From Candidatus Calditenuaceae archaeon HR02 (GTDB lineage: Archaea; Thermoproteota; Nitrososphaeria_A; Caldarchaeales; Calditenuaceae): a stretch of DNA of 64,000 nucleotides. The DNA is taken from assembly GCA_002898395.1 (NCBI GenBank), contig BEHE01000010.1, positions 8,092-72,091 on the forward strand, in the 5' to 3' direction. Numbering within the stretch: position 1 is the first letter of the stretch; the number at the start of each line of letters is the position of its first letter. The notes under the pieces are model-generated. The model worked only from the letters and a program-made list of their open reading frames with translations. It was not told the origin of the DNA and ran no database searches. A program made the position numbers and the translations under genes. This document shows, piece after piece, positions 51,520 through 54,776 of this stretch.

Positions 51520-53817
51520 GTGCAGTCAGCGGTCTATGTCGGTAAGCCTATTCCGCGGAAGGAGGATCTGAGGTTTTTAACAGGTAGGGGCAGGTTCATA
51601 GATGATATAAGTCTCCCGAGGATGCTCTATGCGGCCTTTCTTAGGAGCCCTTACGCCCACGCGAGGATAACTAGTATCGATGTATCTGGCGCACTTCAAA
51701 ACGGCGCGGTGGCCGCCTTCACCGGCCAAGAGCTTAACAAGATGTGTGGTGGCATACATCTAGATGTACCGCGGGGGCGGAAGGATTTTGTGGTTAAGCC
51801 TCTCGCAGAGGGCAAGGTTAGGTATGTTGGCGAGCCTGTCGCTGTTGTAGTTGCTAACGACCCCTACACCGCGCGGGACGCTCTGGAGTACATTAACGTG
51901 GATTACGAGAGGCTTGAGCCGGTTGTGGATCCTCTTGAGGCTTCTAAGCCCGGTGCGCCTATCATACACGATGATTTCCCGGACAATATCTGCTTTACTA
52001 GGAAGCGTGTCTATGGCGATATCGAGGCGGCCTTCAGGGAGGCCGACAAGGTCGTTGATGTCCAGTTGAGGATACAGCGGCTTGTCCCCTCTGCGATGGA
52101 GTGTCGTGGTGTGGTGGCCATTTTTGACGAGGGTGTCGGATACCTGAGGATCTGGGCCACTAAACAATTCCCGCACGACTTTCGAGGCTGGACGGCAGAG
52201 GCCCTCGGAATATCTGAGTCGAAGATTCATGTTATAGCGCCAGACATAGGCGGGGCATTTGGCTCGAAACTCGAGCACTACCCTGAAGATGTAGTGATTC
52301 CCCTCTTAGCTAAATTGCTTGGACGGCCTATAAAGTGGATTGAGACGCGTAGTGAGAACTTCCACTCCACAACTCATGGAAGGGGTAGTGCGGCTTGGGT
52401 TGAGGCGGCCGTGAAGAATGACGGCAGGCTACTCGGGGTTAGAGCTAAGATCTTGACAGATCTCGGCGCCTATCCATACTTCTCCACGATACAGGTTCCC
52501 GAGGGGATTGTCGGGATGTTGCCGGGTTGCTATAAGCTGAGAGGCTTGGAGGCTGAGGTAACTGGCGTCTTCACCAATAAAGTTCCAACGGCGGCGTATA
52601 GGGGTGCGGGCAGGCCAGAGGCCTCATACATTATTGAGCGGACTATGGATAGAATTGCGAGAGAGCTGGGAATCGACCCAGCCGAGGCTCGGAGAAGAAA
52701 TTTCATCAGGCCAGAGGAGTTCCCCTACGAGACAATAACCGGCCACAAGTATGACTCTGGGAACTATGAACAAGCGCTTAACAAGGCGCTCAAGATTGTG
52801 GGCTATGAGGAGCTCAGGCATAGACAGTCAGAGCTAAGGGCTGCTGGGAAGCTGCTGGGCATAGGAATCTCAAGCTACATCGAGGTATGTAACTTTGCCC
52901 CTACCCCCGCTATAGTGAGTGTGGAGAAGGATGGGAGGGTCAAGGTGGTATCTGGAACGCTGCCGCACGGTCAGGGCGAGGAGACTGCATTCGCCCAGAT
53001 AGCTGCTGACGCGTTGGGTGTGGATATAAAAGATGTCGACGTCATATTTGGAGATACTTCTCTAATCGGGTGGGGGCCGGGGACAGCGGGTAGCTGGACA
53101 CTAGCGTCCGGCGGTAATGCGGTCCTACAAGCTTCTATGAAGGTGAGAGACAAGATATTGAGACTTGCAGCCCACATGCTGGAGGTTAGGCCCGAGGACT
53201 TGGAGATCGTTGACGGCAAGGTTGGAGTGAAAGGCGTCCCAGAGAAGTCCGTGAAGATTAAGGAGGTCGCTGCCCTAGCGTATGACCCTTCAGGACTGCC
53301 TGCCGGTATTGAGCCTGGACTCTCTGCAGAGGTGGGCTACAGTCCACAGCTGACGTATCCATTTGGGACGCATGTGGCCGTAGTCGAGATTGATTTGGAG
53401 ACGGGAAGGGTAGAGGTGAAGAGGCTAGTGCTTGTCGATGACTGTGGAAGGGTTGTTAACCCGCTTCTAGTTGAGGGGCAGGTAATTGGCGGGGCGGTCC
53501 AGGCCCTAGCTCAAGCCCTCTACGAAGAGGCTTTCTTTGATAGTGATGGAAACCTAGTCAACTCCAACTTTGGGGACTATCTTATTCCTACTGCCGTCGA
53601 GATACCTGAAATCCAGACGGAGAGGACCGAGACGCCTGCCCCTAACCCGCTGGGGGCAAAAGGTGTCGGGGAGGCTGCGACAATAGGCTTGACACAGGCC
53701 GTGGTAAATGCTGTTGAGGATGCACTCGCACCGCTCGGTGTAAGGGTAGTGGATACGCCGCTAACACCCTACCAGGTTTGGCGCATAATACGGGAAAAAC
53801 TCCCGAAATCGGGTTGA
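51520..53817 (+). CDS. molybdopterin-dependent hydroxylase large subunit (CoxL/XdhA/aldehyde oxidoreductase family)
   Basis: 765 aa. N-terminal GRGRFIDDI, a mid-region active-site loop (GAFGSK), and C-terminal dimerisation motifs of the xanthine-dehydrogenase family. No adjacent small or medium subunit genes. Confidence 0.7.
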   Translation: MQSAVYVGKPIPRKEDLRFLTGRGRFIDDISLPRMLYAAFLRSPYAHARITSIDVSGALQNGAVAAFTGQELNKMCGGIHLDVPRGRKDFVVKPLAEGKVRYVGEPVAVVVANDPYTARDALEYINVDYERLEPVVDPLEASKPGAPIIHDDFPDNICFTRKRVYGDIEAAFREADKVVDVQLRIQRLVPSAMECRGVVAIFDEGVGYLRIWATKQFPHDFRGWTAEALGISESKIHVIAPDIGGAFGSKLEHYPEDVVIPLLAKLLGRPIKWIETRSENFHSTTHGRGSAAWVEAAVKNDGRLLGVRAKILTDLGAYPYFSTIQVPEGIVGMLPGCYKLRGLEAEVTGVFTNKVPTAAYRGAGRPEASYIIERTMDRIARELGIDPAEARRRNFIRPEEFPYETITGHKYDSGNYEQALNKALKIVGYEELRHRQSELRAAGKLLGIGISSYIEVCNFAPTPAIVSVEKDGRVKVVSGTLPHGQGEETAFAQIAADALGVDIKDVDVIFGDTSLIGWGPGTAGSWTLASGGNAVLQASMKVRDKILRLAAHMLEVRPEDLEIVDGKVGVKGVPEKSVKIKEVAALAYDPSGLPAGIEPGLSAEVGYSPQLTYPFGTHVAVVEIDLETGRVEVKRLVLVDDCGRVVNPLLVEGQVIGGAVQALAQALYEEAFFDSDGNLVNSNFGDYLIPTAVEIPEIQTERTETPAPNPLGAKGVGEAATIGLTQAVVNAVEDALAPLGVRVVDTPLTPYQVWRIIREKLPKSG

Positions 53818-53865
53818 AGTAATACTTTCGTATTATTCTAAATAAGTTGATGCAAATGTTTATAT

Positions 53866-53873
53866 AGGGGACC
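53866..53873 (+). promoter_or_regulatory. TATA box (TTTATATA) for the downstream ncRNA
   Basis: Perfect archaeal TATA about 20-25 nt upstream of the first G of the GC-rich structured element. Confidence 0.45.
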
Positions 53874-53885
53874 ATAATTTCTTAT

Positions 53886-54075
53886 GGAGCGGGGCGCCCG
53901 GGATAGGGGAGATCCGAGAGGCGTCAGGGAAACCTGGCGTCTCTGGGAGCCTCCAGTCTCGTGGACCCAACGGGAAACCGTGGGCAAAGGGATTGGAGAG
54001 GGTGCTCACGGTGTGCGTGGGGCCTAGGGGTCTAACACGCACGTCGCGCGCCCTCCCCGAAAGGCGCCCCGTCTA
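53886..54075 (+). ncRNA. structured GC-rich ncRNA (about 190 nt; class unassigned; candidate minimal RNase P RNA or other stable RNA)
   Basis: Terminal helix GGGGCGCC/GGCGCCCC. Two GAAA (GNRA) hairpins with 12-bp and 7-bp stems. A third 8-bp hairpin (UGUGCGUG/CACGCACG) whose loop GGGUC can pair with GACCC in the junction, a possible pseudoknot. The segment has sharply higher GC than the flanks, no protein-like ORF, and its own TATA box. Confidence 0.5.
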
Positions 54076-54077
54076 AT

Positions 54078-54776
54078 TTACGGAGCAAACATGTGTCTGA
54101 GGACCCTCTCATAATACTGTTCCGGGGAATATTCTATCATCTCCAGGTCGTCGATGTTGAGGACGATTATGGAGTGTATTCTGCAGTTGCGTAGCTCGTC
54201 TATCTGGATGGGAGGCCTGCTGTAGTAGATGTCGCAGAGGCTCTTCAGCGACTCCACTTCTCCAGCCTCTCTAAGCCTTGGCGGCTTCAACAAGGGTTCC
54301 GGGATCTCCAGAATGTTGTAGCGGGGGGTTGCTAGGCTGAACTTGTCAGCATACTTACTGTATCGCGCAACCTTACTAACCACTCGGGCCCGGAGATACC
54401 TCTGAGGGTCGAGGGCGGCTTCAGGCGGGGCGAAACCGGTTTCTATCTCAATGATGTGGGTGCTTCCTCCCTTCTCGCCAAAGACGTCACAGACGAGTGA
54501 ATCGCCGAGATACCTTTCCACATCAACCTCATACCCAAGCCTCGCCAAGTGCCCCGCGCAGATAACCTCCATCACCGAATGATTAATCTTAACTAGTCCT
54601 CTCTGATGCATGTCGATGAGCTTCGCTCCAATCCTGTAGAGCTGATCTCTGAGAGACTGGCCTAGCAACCCTGCTAGCCTCTCTACCAACGCGGTGATGT
54701 CTCTAGCAAAATCGCTTTCACTCGGTCTATCAGCGTGCTTGGCTACTTCCCGCTCACTCGGCTGGTCGCTGCTCAC
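54078..54776 (-). CDS. hypothetical protein (possible PD-(D/E)xK-like nuclease fold)
   Basis: 232 aa. An acidic N-terminus, then ...GYEVDVERYLGDSLVCDVF...HIIEIETG, resembling a D...D/E-x-K nuclease core. No confident family. Confidence 0.35.
   Translation of the reverse strand: MSSDQPSEREVAKHADRPSESDFARDITALVERLAGLLGQSLRDQLYRIGAKLIDMHQRGLVKINHSVMEVICAGHLARLGYEVDVERYLGDSLVCDVFGEKGGSTHIIEIETGFAPPEAALDPQRYLRARVVSKVARYSKYADKFSLATPRYNILEIPEPLLKPPRLREAGEVESLKSLCDIYYSRPPIQIDELRNCRIHSIIVLNIDDLEMIEYSPEQYYERVLRHMFAP

What the first reader, a model, noticed from the sequence alone, without database searches (positions are those of the whole stretch)
53866..54075. Unannotated, highly structured ~190-nt GC-rich RNA gene with its own TATA box
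Between the CoxL-like gene and the 232-aa ORF there is a segment with GC content far above the flanks. It has no credible ORF; the only ORFs are antisense 60-77-aa artefacts. A perfect TTTATATA lies about 20 nt upstream.

The structural evidence is:
- The ends pair (GGGGCGCC with GGCGCCCC).
- Inside are two GNRA (GAAA) hairpins. One has a 12-bp stem with two symmetric G-U wobbles, GAGAGGCGUCAGG-GAAA-CCUGGCGUCUCU.
- A third hairpin, UGUGCGUG...CACGCACG, has a loop (GGGUC) that can form a pseudoknot with GACCC in the junction.

The size and the pseudoknotted three-way junction suggest a stable catalytic or structural RNA. The roughly 200-nt 'type T' minimal RNase P RNA of Thermoproteaceae is one candidate. 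SRP RNA seems too long to fit. It could equally be a class not yet described.
Basis: seen in the sequence. Interest (0 to 1): 0.72.

Follow-up and report, generated by a model that had tools for sequence, protein, structure and literature searches.

The report
Uncatalogued structured RNA gene in archaea
This is a real gene for a tightly folded ~184-nt non-coding RNA, a short member of a family conserved across Aigarchaeota, ammonia-oxidising Thaumarchaeota and some Bathyarchaeia, which matches no catalogued RNA family and nearly always sits beside the same nuclease-like gene.

Summary
Window 53889-54072 (+) is a stand-alone gene for a 184-nt, 68% GC RNA. A TTTATATA box lies 22 nt upstream and no reading frame is conserved.

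It is not RNase P RNA or SRP RNA. No Rfam 15 family matches it, even at permissive thresholds. It has no CR-I motif and no P4-type topology. The organism is a Caldarchaeales (Aigarchaeota) archaeon, not a member of Thermoproteaceae.

Relatives of 178-240 nt occur in about 69 of 160 related loci, from Caldarchaeales, Nitrosocaldales, ammonia-oxidising Nitrososphaeria and some Bathyarchaeia. A covariance model built without the window's clade finds this element as the only hit in 64 kb (E = 1.2e-07).

The fold is a terminal stem, a 3-nt bulge, a 4-bp helix, a 6-nt A-N-A-G-R-R bulge and a short helix, which opens onto a four-way junction with three hairpins. Across 50 sequences, 43 of 47 pairs show compensatory changes. 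Relatives also have a covarying pseudoknot between hairpins B and C.

The only conserved neighbour is a 232-aa PD-(D/E)XK-fold protein with no Pfam family. Function is unknown. My best inference is a trans-acting RNA that works with protein, possibly this neighbour.

The parts
53852..53866 (+). Archaeal promoter: purine-rich BRE-like AAATG followed by the TATA box TTTATATA (53859-53866). It lies 22 nt upstream of the first paired base.
   Evidence: Read directly from the sequence. TTTATATAG is invariant in window, L001, L002 and L003. Ammonia-oxidiser members have AAAAGTTTATAT at the same distance. Transcription itself is inferred.
53889..54072 (+). The RNA gene, 184 nt and 68% GC. It is a single copy in the window.
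   Evidence: R1 gives one hit at 181.8 bits. R2, built without this clade, gives one full-length hit at 31.6 bits, E = 1.2e-07. MFE z = -7.8.
53889..53898 (+). P1, 5' strand (GCGGGGCGCC). It pairs with 54063-54072.
   Evidence: All 9 modelled P1 pairs have compensatory double changes across the family.
53899..53902 (+). P1b, 5' strand (CGGG). This 4-bp helix pairs with 54056-54059 (CCCG).
   Evidence: All 4 pairs covary across the family, for example AU:31/GC:16 and AU:33/GC:15.
53903..53908 (+). 6-nt 5' bulge AUAGGG. The family consensus is A-N-A-G-R-R, with its 1st, 3rd and 4th bases 94-100% conserved.
   Evidence: The G-rich 3' half can alternatively pair with the same 3' strand that P1b uses.
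53909..53911 (+). P2, 5' strand (GAG). It pairs with 54053-54055 (CUC) and closes the four-way junction.
   Evidence: All 5 P2 pairs in the family model covary.
53912..53949 (+). Hairpin A, with a 12-bp apical stem, two G-U pairs and a GAAA loop at 53929-53932. It corresponds to the apical half of the longer hairpin A in relatives.
   Evidence: Many compensatory changes within the clade and across the family. The R2 alignment shows the basal half deleted here.
53951..53998 (+). Hairpin B. The basal stem covaries. The apical part (GACCCAACGGGAAACCGUGGGCAAAGG) is almost invariant within the clade. GAAA loop at 53974-53977.
53962..53968 (+). UGGACCC, the candidate pseudoknot partner of the hairpin C loop.
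   Evidence: 7-bp complementarity. Changes are one-sided only (L003 G to A, L083 C to U). Shuffles reach it 3-9% of the time. Not proven in this clade.
53998..54002 (+). Conserved junction strand GAGGG between hairpins B and C. In the family model its middle two G's pair with an invariant CC near the 3' end, and the last G is 100% conserved and unpaired.
   Evidence: (pairs GC:50 and GC:48).
54000..54052 (+). Hairpin C domain. The middle stem covaries. The apical sequence GUGGGGCCUAGGGGUCUAACAC is invariant in the clade.
54028..54034 (+). GGGUCUA in the apical loop of hairpin C, the candidate pseudoknot strand.
   Evidence: In Nitrosocaldus-type relatives the homologous loop forms a pseudoknot in which 4 of 5 pairs covary (0 of 500 shuffles reach the score). 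L025 carries the same GGGUCUAAC loop.
54060..54062 (+). 3-nt bulge AAA on the 3' strand, between P1b and P1.
   Evidence: A 3-nt bulge with its first base A in 94% of members.
54063..54072 (+). P1, 3' strand (GGCGCCCCGU).
54073..54080 (+). Weak T-tract (CTAATTTA) after the RNA, a likely termination region. It overlaps the stop codon of the convergent gene.
   Evidence: Relatives have T4-T5 runs at this position. Termination is inferred.
54078..54776 (-). Conserved neighbour: a 232-aa protein with a PD-(D/E)XK (restriction-endonuclease-like) fold. It has no Pfam, NCBIfam or PDB sequence match and is convergent with the RNA.

Best explanation
Window 53889-54072 (+) is a stand-alone gene for a stable, highly structured non-coding RNA. 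It is a shortened, 184-nt member of an RNA family that is absent from Rfam 15. The family is conserved in Nitrososphaeria (Caldarchaeales/Aigarchaeota, Nitrosocaldales, ammonia oxidisers) and in some Bathyarchaeia.

Shown:
- A BRE/TATA promoter sits 22 nt upstream of the first paired base, and relatives have a T-tract just after the last paired base.
- The 5' and 3' ends are locked in a 10-bp helix, P1.
- P1 leads through a 3-nt bulge, a 4-bp helix, a conserved 6-nt A-N-A-G-R-R bulge and a short helix P2 into a four-way junction with three hairpins.
- The helices covary. The junction strands are purine-rich and nearly invariant.
- Relatives have a covarying pseudoknot between hairpins B and C.

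Inferred:
- The RNA is transcribed on its own.
- It acts in trans through its three-dimensional fold rather than by antisense pairing, as the RNA part or ligand of a ribonucleoprotein.
- The prime candidate partner is the PD-(D/E)XK-fold protein encoded next to it in every lineage. The RNA could scaffold or regulate that protein, or be processed by it.

The biochemical activity is unknown.
For: Real structured RNA:
- MFE z = -7.8.
- Within-clade alignment A4 has 14 of 66 pairs with double compensatory changes.
- The Bathyarchaeia-type alignment A5 has 98.3% of cells paired, against 31-42% when partners are slid. It has 15 covarying pairs, and 0 of 500 shuffles reach the observed values.
- The family alignment A9 (50 sequences including the window) has 97.6% of cells paired, against 77% shuffled and 32-40% slid. 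43 of 47 pairs covary, with 0 of 500 shuffles reaching the observed values.

Homology shown independently: model R2, built only from ammonia-oxidiser and Bathyarchaeia sequences, finds the window element as its only hit in 64 kb. The hit is full length with E = 1.2e-07.

Own gene: the TATA box is conserved. Ammonia-oxidiser members have AAAAGTTTATAT 25-30 nt upstream and a U-tract after P1, even though they lie downstream of a protein gene.

Not coding.

Not a known family.

Pseudoknot in relatives.

Linkage to the PD-(D/E)XK gene:
- The RNA abuts or lies within about 1.5 kb of the gene in about 69 of 160 loci.
- This holds in convergent, tandem and upstream arrangements.
- All other flanking genes differ among four lineages.

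Protein fold.
Against: - There is no expression data, so transcription, transcript ends and abundance are all inferred.
- There is no direct evidence of any RNA-protein contact. Linkage could be inherited synteny.
- In Calditenuis-type loci (L005-L009, L011), the other Bathyarchaeia loci, Thermoprotei, Methanomethylicia and Marsarchaeota, the protein gene has no detectable RNA within 6 kb.
- In L082 and L085 the two genes are 1.4-1.6 kb apart.
- The RNA has no unstructured variable segment that could serve as a guide.
- The A9 alignment was fitted to the model's structure, which inflates pair counts somewhat.
- The literature search was by keyword and covered open-access papers only.
Confidence: 0.6

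Rival explanations
1. The RNA is real and belongs to the same new family, but it works independently of the neighbouring gene, for example as a ribozyme or as a scaffold for other proteins in RNA processing or translation. The adjacency would be inherited gene order or shared use of promoter and terminator space.
For: The fold is complex, with a pseudoknot and invariant purine-rich junctions, as in catalytic or ligand-binding RNAs. Many loci carry the protein gene with no RNA nearby. Spacing and orientation vary between lineages.
Against: The adjacency survives inversion and complete turnover of all other neighbours, across class-level divergence. That is unusual for unrelated genes in prokaryotes.
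Confidence: 0.28
2. It is a cis-acting element of the neighbouring nuclease-like gene. It could be a structured 3' UTR or bidirectional terminator, an antisense regulator of the convergent mRNA, or a riboswitch-like leader.
For: In the window the RNA's 3' end lies 5 nt from the stop codon of the convergent gene. In ammonia oxidisers it lies about 90 nt downstream of the gene on the same strand. The four-way junction plus pseudoknot resembles riboswitch aptamers.
Against: It has its own BRE/TATA at a fixed distance in every lineage, including the tandem arrangement. Its orientation relative to the gene flips, and in soil Nitrososphaera it lies about 1.4 kb upstream. Its ends are sealed by P1. 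No gene consistently follows it. No riboswitch model matches.
Confidence: 0.07
3. The base of the RNA is a relaxed bulge-helix-bulge (BHB) site. The tRNA-splicing endonuclease would cut in the two bulges and a ligase would circularise the inner ~160-nt RNA. This would add to the best explanation rather than exclude it.
For: The strand topology is exactly that of a BHB motif: an outer helix, a 3-nt bulge on the 3' strand, a 4-bp central helix, a bulge on the 5' strand and an inner helix. All three helices covary.
Against: The second bulge is 6 nt with a conserved sequence, not 3 nt. The promoter and T-tract place the transcript ends at P1, so P1 looks like part of the mature RNA. No expression data exist.
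Confidence: 0.08
4. It is a minimal or divergent RNase P RNA (type T or similar).
For: The size of about 190 nt, the high GC content, the closed terminal helix, the stand-alone promoter and the archaeal host are all superficially similar. There is also a loose resemblance between GAGGG..AAAC / AGAAAGCC and the CR-I / CR-V motifs.
Against: No RNase P model matches at E <= 10 in any of five forms of the RNA, nor at gathering score. There is no CR-I match at up to 2 mismatches. The helices are nested, with no P4 pseudoknot. Two hairpins, not one, precede the GAGGG strand. The host is Caldarchaeales, not Thermoproteaceae. Nitrosopumilus, an ammonia-oxidising thaumarchaeon from the group in which this RNA also occurs, already has a conventional type-A rnpB (PMC2996960).
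Confidence: 0.02
5. It is an SRP (7S) RNA or a fragment of one.
For: Two hairpins are capped by GNRA-type loops, as with SRP helices 6 and 8.
Against: No Archaea_SRP match at any threshold. The size is 184 nt against about 300 nt. The tetraloops are not conserved across the family. There are no helix-8 loop motifs.
Confidence: 0.01

Closest known systems
Type T (minimal) RNase P RNA of Thermoproteaceae, Rfam RF02357
   Same: An archaeal RNA of about 200 nt that is GC-rich, has a closed terminal helix and is encoded by a stand-alone gene. It is a reduced form of a larger RNA, much as the window's 184-nt version is a reduced form of the 220-240-nt family.
   Different: No covariance-model match, no CR-I or CR-V, and no P4 long-range helix. 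The junction layout differs, as does the host lineage. The family also occurs in ammonia-oxidising Thaumarchaeota, a group in which Nitrosopumilus has a conventional rnpB.
Structured RNAs encoded next to nuclease genes, such as omega RNAs of IscB/TnpB (including HEARO) and tracrRNA
   Same: A structured RNA gene of about 200 nt that is persistently adjacent to a nuclease-fold protein gene, which suggests an RNA-protein pair.
   Different: The protein here has a PD-(D/E)XK fold, not RuvC/HNH. The locus is single-copy, sits among housekeeping genes, and its distribution follows host lineages. I saw no transposon ends or repeats. Both RNA ends are base-paired and there is no variable guide segment.
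Archaeal bulge-helix-bulge (BHB) processing motifs of pre-tRNA and pre-rRNA
   Same: The order of elements at the base of the RNA is identical: outer helix, 3-nt bulge on the 3' strand, 4-bp helix, bulge on the 5' strand, inner helix.
   Different: The second bulge is 6 nt and conserved in sequence (A-N-A-G-R-R), not 3 nt. The outer helix begins at the predicted transcript start.
Large riboswitch aptamers with a four-way junction and a loop pseudoknot, such as SAM-I and cobalamin
   Same: A four-way junction, a loop-to-strand pseudoknot, and invariant purine-rich junction strands.
   Different: It is not upstream of any consistent gene, it has its own promoter and terminator, and no riboswitch model matches.
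Tan1 (Thalassoarchaea ncRNA 1), an abundant 229-nt ncRNA of unknown function in Marine Group II Euryarchaeota (PMC5069720)
   Same: An archaeal RNA that is abundant, structurally complex, distinct from RNase P and SRP RNA, and 229 nt long. That is the length of the Bathyarchaeia-type members here.
   Different: It comes from a different phylum.

Membership tests
RNase P RNA (archaeal type A RF00373, type T RF02357) | A significant match to the family covariance model | tested here: not met
   cmscan at gathering score gave 0 hits in the window. At E <= 10 on 53700-54250 there was no RNase P hit. The same holds for relatives L038, L114, L093, L111 and L141 and for 19 further loci at gathering score.
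RNase P RNA (archaeal type A RF00373, type T RF02357) | The universally conserved CR-I sequence (AGGAAAGUCC-like) and a P4 long-range helix formed with CR-V | tested here: not met
   No CR-I match inside 53889-54072 at up to 2 mismatches. All covarying helices are nested around a four-way junction, and the only pseudoknot joins hairpins B and C.
RNase P RNA (archaeal type A RF00373, type T RF02357) | For type T: restriction to Thermoproteaceae, which lack a conventional RNase P RNA | tested here: not met
   The host is Caldarchaeales/Calditenuaceae-like. The family also occurs in ammonia oxidisers, a group that has a conventional rnpB (PMC2996960).
RNase P RNA (archaeal type A RF00373, type T RF02357) | Cleavage of the 5' leader of pre-tRNA | not testable with these tools
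   This needs a biochemical assay.
Archaeal SRP RNA (RF01857) | A covariance-model match, a length of about 300 nt, and the helix 8 loop motifs | tested here: not met
   No match at any threshold. The length is 184 nt. The tetraloops are not conserved among family members.
Canonical bulge-helix-bulge (BHB) splicing motif | A 3-nt bulge on the 3' strand next to the outer helix | tested here: met
   AAA at 54060-54062. The bulge is 3 nt across the family.
Canonical bulge-helix-bulge (BHB) splicing motif | A central helix of exactly 4 bp | tested here: met
   CGGG:CCCG in the window. All 4 pairs covary across the family.
Canonical bulge-helix-bulge (BHB) splicing motif | A second 3-nt bulge on the 5' strand, followed by an inner helix | tested here: not met
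   The bulge is 6 nt (AUAGGG, consensus A-N-A-G-R-R). A 3-nt bulge would leave only 0-2 bp of inner helix.
Canonical bulge-helix-bulge (BHB) splicing motif | Cleavage by the splicing endonuclease, followed by ligation or circularisation | not testable with these tools
   This needs RNA-seq junction reads or an enzyme assay.
RNA-guided nuclease systems (omega RNA / tracrRNA type) | A structured RNA encoded next to its nuclease gene | tested here: met
   Adjacent or within about 1.5 kb in about 69 of 160 loci.
RNA-guided nuclease systems (omega RNA / tracrRNA type) | A variable, unpaired guide segment at one end of a conserved scaffold | tested here: not met
   Both ends are paired in P1. Variable positions lie in covarying stems.
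RNA-guided nuclease systems (omega RNA / tracrRNA type) | A RuvC/HNH-type effector in a mobile or defence context | tested here: not met
   The protein has a PD-(D/E)XK fold. The neighbours are housekeeping genes that differ by lineage, and the element is single-copy.
Riboswitch / cis-regulatory leader | A position in the 5' UTR of a consistently regulated gene, and a match to a known aptamer class | tested here: not met
   No consistent downstream gene. It has its own promoter and T-tract. No Rfam match.

The most novel reading that the evidence does not exclude
The RNA and the PD-(D/E)XK-fold protein encoded beside it would form a previously unknown, vertically inherited ribonucleoprotein of Nitrososphaeria and Bathyarchaeia, a group that includes the globally abundant ammonia-oxidising archaea. 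In this reading the nuclease-fold protein depends on, is regulated by, or matures a dedicated pseudoknotted RNA of about 200 nt. The RNA might also be excised at its BHB-like base and circularised. That would be a new kind of housekeeping RNP, alongside RNase P and SRP.
Probability: 0.3. Interest if true: 0.9.

Novelty: categorically new. Interest (0 to 1): 0.8.

Why it matters
Large, conserved structured RNAs with complex tertiary folds are rare. Those that have been characterised have generally turned out to be ribozymes, riboswitches or cores of essential RNPs.

This family spans class-level divergence in Thermoproteota and occurs in ammonia-oxidising archaea that are central to the global nitrogen cycle. 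Even so, it matches none of the 4227 Rfam 15 families, and I found no published name for it.

Its covariation signal (43 of 47 pairs) is as strong as for well-established RNAs. Its persistent linkage to an uncharacterised PD-(D/E)XK protein family gives a directly testable hypothesis for the function of both genes.

The window's 184-nt version is a naturally minimised, very GC-rich form. That makes it a convenient target for structural and biochemical work.

Tried and rejected
1. Rfam. I scanned the whole window and 19 loci at gathering score, and five forms of the RNA at permissive thresholds. Only chance-level hits appeared (miRNA-like, S6-S18 leader and similar, E 0.04-10).

2. RNase P and SRP. 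Rejected; see the membership tests.

3. tRNA or tmRNA. ARAGORN finds none in the window.

4. Repeat or mobile element. The element is single-copy, with no meaningful direct repeats and no second CM hit.

5. Protein-coding. Rejected.

6. K-turn at the P1/P1b bulge. By eye, the bases flanking the bulge form Watson-Crick C-G pairs rather than tandem sheared G-A pairs, so this was rejected. This is inference from the sequences.

7. Global MAFFT alignment of all subgroups (A3). It was unreliable in the interior, and MAFFT's structural modes are not installed. I replaced it with subgroup alignments and covariance-model-based alignment.

8. Per-sequence complementarity as a test of the pseudoknot. 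It was not significant on its own, with shuffles matching it 3-90% of the time. Only covariation at homologous columns supports the pseudoknot.

9. Bacterial sigma-70 promoter and intrinsic-terminator scan. It is not informative for an archaeon and found no terminator.

10. Literature. Seven keyword searches found no name for the RNA. The Tan1 sequence is not in the held text or supplements.

11. AFDB fold search. The library was unavailable.

12. Sequence searches for the neighbouring protein (Pfam, NCBIfam, PDB sequences). No hits.
Full report
**Observation.**
- Window 53889-54072 (+) is 68% GC. The 100-nt windows just upstream are 40-42% GC.
- It folds at -122 kcal/mol, with z = -7.8 against 200 dinucleotide shuffles. 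The reverse strand gives z = -4.7.
- TTTATATA is at 53859-53866, 22 nt before the first paired base.
- The ends pair over 10 bp. Both GAAA-capped hairpins and the third hairpin are as described.
- Two corrections: the RNA is 184 nt long, and the junction is four-way rather than three-way.

**Organism and context.** The flanking genes are glutamine synthetase, a CoxL-type molybdopterin subunit, a 232-aa ORF with no Pfam match, PCNA and Thi4. Homologues of the 232-aa protein and the closest genomic loci are labelled Calditenuaceae, Caldarchaeales, Aigarchaeota or Nitrososphaerota. The host is therefore an aigarchaeote, not a member of Thermoproteaceae. That already argues against a type T RNase P RNA.

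**Relatives.** I fetched 160 loci around homologues of the 232-aa protein, 80 from genomes and 80 from metagenomes.
- BLASTN found the element at the same position in close relatives at 75-92% identity.
- Reading the equivalent interval in distant loci revealed longer RNAs of 196-240 nt with the same end motifs.
- A descriptor search, four subgroup HMMs and two covariance models together detect the RNA in about 69 of the 160 loci.

The members fall into these groups:
- the window's clade, 178-187 nt;
- other Aigarchaeota-like lineages such as Terraquivivens and Geocrenenecus, 209-220 nt;
- Nitrosocaldus-type, about 220 nt;
- ammonia-oxidising Nitrososphaerales and Nitrosopumilales, 226-240 nt;
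- a subset of Bathyarchaeia, 223-229 nt.

The decisive homology test used model R2, which was built only from 12 Bathyarchaeia-type and 10 ammonia-oxidiser sequences. It finds exactly one hit in the 64-kb window: 53889-54072 (+), full length, 31.6 bits, E = 1.2e-07. The alignment shows that the window's clade has lost the basal half of hairpin A and part of hairpin B. The window's RNA is therefore a minimised form of the family.

**Structure.** All groups share one architecture:
- P1 of 9-10 bp joins the two ends.
- A 3-nt bulge, A-rich, sits on the 3' strand.
- A 4-bp helix, P1b, follows.
- A 6-nt bulge on the 5' strand has the consensus A-N-A-G-R-R.
- A short helix, P2, closes a four-way junction that carries hairpins A, B and C.

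Covariation is strong at every level:

| Alignment | Sequences | Cells paired | Pairs with double changes | Controls |
|---|---|---|---|---|
| A4, window clade | 7 | not counted | 14 of 66 | not run |
| A5, Bathyarchaeia-type | 18 | 98.3% | 15 of 68 | slid 31-42%; 0 of 500 shuffles |
| A9, whole family | 50 | 97.6% | 43 of 47 | shuffled 77%; slid 32-40%; 0 of 500 shuffles |

A9 was aligned to the model, which favours the structure somewhat. The slid controls and the independent MAFFT alignments give the same answer.

The nearly invariant unpaired bases are:
- the A-N-A-G of the 6-nt bulge;
- a GAGGG..A.C strand between hairpins B and C, two of whose G's pair with an invariant CC;
- G....CCaCaU before the closing strand.

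The 3' strand of P1b can alternatively pair with the G-rich half of the 6-nt bulge, and that alternative is also always possible. It may reflect a conformational switch. The nested version is the one in which every pair covaries.

**Pseudoknot.** In the window's clade this complementarity extends to 7 bp (54028-54034 with 53962-53968). Both strands are almost invariant, though, and 3-9% of shuffled loops do as well. In Nitrosocaldus-type relatives the homologous loop pairs with a strand of hairpin B, and 4 of the 5 pairs show double compensatory changes. Examples are AGGCU:AGCCU, AAGCC:GGCUU, GGGCU:AGCCC and AGACC:GGUCU. No shuffle in 500 reaches the covariation score. Ammonia-oxidiser sequences fit the same pairing. 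A B-C pseudoknot is thus a feature of the family. In the window it is likely but unproven, and the partner strand lies on the other side of B's apical hairpin.

**Gene signals.** TTTATATAG is invariant in the four closest sequences. Ammonia-oxidiser members have AAAAGTTTATAT 25-30 nt before P1 and a U-tract directly after P1, although they lie downstream of a protein gene on the same strand. Close relatives of the window have T4-T5 after P1. The window has only TTT, which overlaps the stop codon of the convergent gene. I infer a self-contained transcription unit whose product begins and ends at P1.

**Not coding.** Relatives differ by 1- and 2-nt indels at five places. L001 and L003 have stops in all six frames. 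Substitutions show no codon periodicity.

**Known families.** None of the 4227 Rfam 15 families reaches its gathering score in the window or in 19 related loci. Permissive scans of five forms of the RNA give only chance-level hits, and none is to RNase P, SRP or a riboswitch. There is no CR-I sequence and no P4-like helix. Nitrosopumilus maritimus, an ammonia-oxidising thaumarchaeon, is recognised by standard type-A rnpB models (PMC2996960), and this RNA occurs in ammonia-oxidising Nitrososphaerales and Nitrosopumilales. So this RNA is additional to RNase P RNA rather than a substitute for it. ARAGORN finds nothing.

The RNA is convergent with this gene, 5-25 nt from its stop codon, in Aigarchaeota and Bathyarchaeia. 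It is tandem, about 90 nt downstream, in Nitrosocaldales and marine-type ammonia oxidisers. It lies about 1.4 kb upstream in soil Nitrososphaera.

Every other neighbour differs between lineages:

| Lineage | Genes flanking the pair |
|---|---|
| Window clade | PCNA; CoxL, GlnA |
| Terraquivivens | nitroreductase; SBF transporter |
| Bathyarchaeia | nitroreductase; radical-SAM genes |
| Ammonia oxidisers | 3HCDH; AspDH, NadA |

**Mechanism.**
- Shown: the RNA is a conserved, independently promoted, non-coding, pseudoknotted four-way-junction RNA that is genetically linked to a PD-(D/E)XK gene.
- Inferred: it acts in trans through its fold as part of an RNP. Its sealed ends and the absence of a variable single-stranded segment argue against a guide or antisense role.

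My estimates are about 0.95 that this is a genuine member of an uncatalogued RNA family, about 0.6 that it is a trans-acting RNA working with protein, and about 0.4 that the neighbour is its partner. The base module has the strand topology of a BHB splice site but with a 6-nt second bulge. Processing and circularisation is therefore a minority possibility, at about 0.1.

**Caveats.**
- No expression data were available.
- The literature search was by keyword and limited to open-access papers.
- Tan1, a 229-nt unknown RNA of Marine Group II archaea (PMC5069720), could not be compared.
- Many loci carry the protein gene with no detectable RNA nearby.

Noticed in passing
window 54078-54776 (-): The 232-aa neighbour belongs to a large protein family in Thermoproteota (2485 hits) that has no Pfam, NCBIfam or PDB sequence match. 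Its confident model has a PD-(D/E)XK nuclease fold, and its invariant acidic and basic residues (E69, D96, E109, E111, K134) are consistent with an active site.
   Followed up: partly
window 1-64000: No tRNA gene and no Rfam-recognised RNA of any kind in the whole 64 kb.
   Followed up: no
window 53899-53911 with 54053-54062: The 3' strand CUCCCC can pair either with CGGG (P1b) or with the GGGG of the 6-nt bulge. Both alternatives are possible in every lineage, which could indicate a conformational switch.
   Followed up: partly
L070 6653-6861 (-) and 7286-8561 (+): In this Aigarchaeota MAG the RNA gene is divergent from the 16S rRNA gene, which starts about 420 nt away. In L007, L009 and L011 the 23S rRNA gene lies about 4.6 kb from the nuclease-like gene.
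   Followed up: no
L082 3130-4717 and L085 2919-4278: In two close relatives about 1.4-1.6 kb of extra DNA separates the nuclease-like gene from the RNA. I did not examine its content.
   Followed up: no
L028 4436-4673 (-), L044, L051, L053, L136, L138, L156, L157: Soil Nitrososphaera-type members are about 238-240 nt long. They lie about 1.3-1.5 kb upstream of the nuclease-like gene on the opposite strand, which is a third arrangement of the pair.
   Followed up: partly
PMC5069720 (literature): Tan1 is an abundant 229-nt ncRNA of unknown function in Marine Group II Euryarchaeota, with a complex predicted structure. Its length matches the Bathyarchaeia-type members.
   Followed up: partly
L163 2584-3161 and 11520-11684: HEPN and nucleotidyltransferase (NTP_transf_2) gene pairs, which look like toxin-antitoxin modules, flank the syntenic region in the closest complete relative.
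   Followed up: no
L093 2446-2545 (+): A weak C/D-box snoRNA-like hit (snoR41, 27.4 bits, E = 0.26) lies about 600 nt downstream of the RNA in an ammonia-oxidiser contig. It could be an archaeal C/D sRNA.
   Followed up: no
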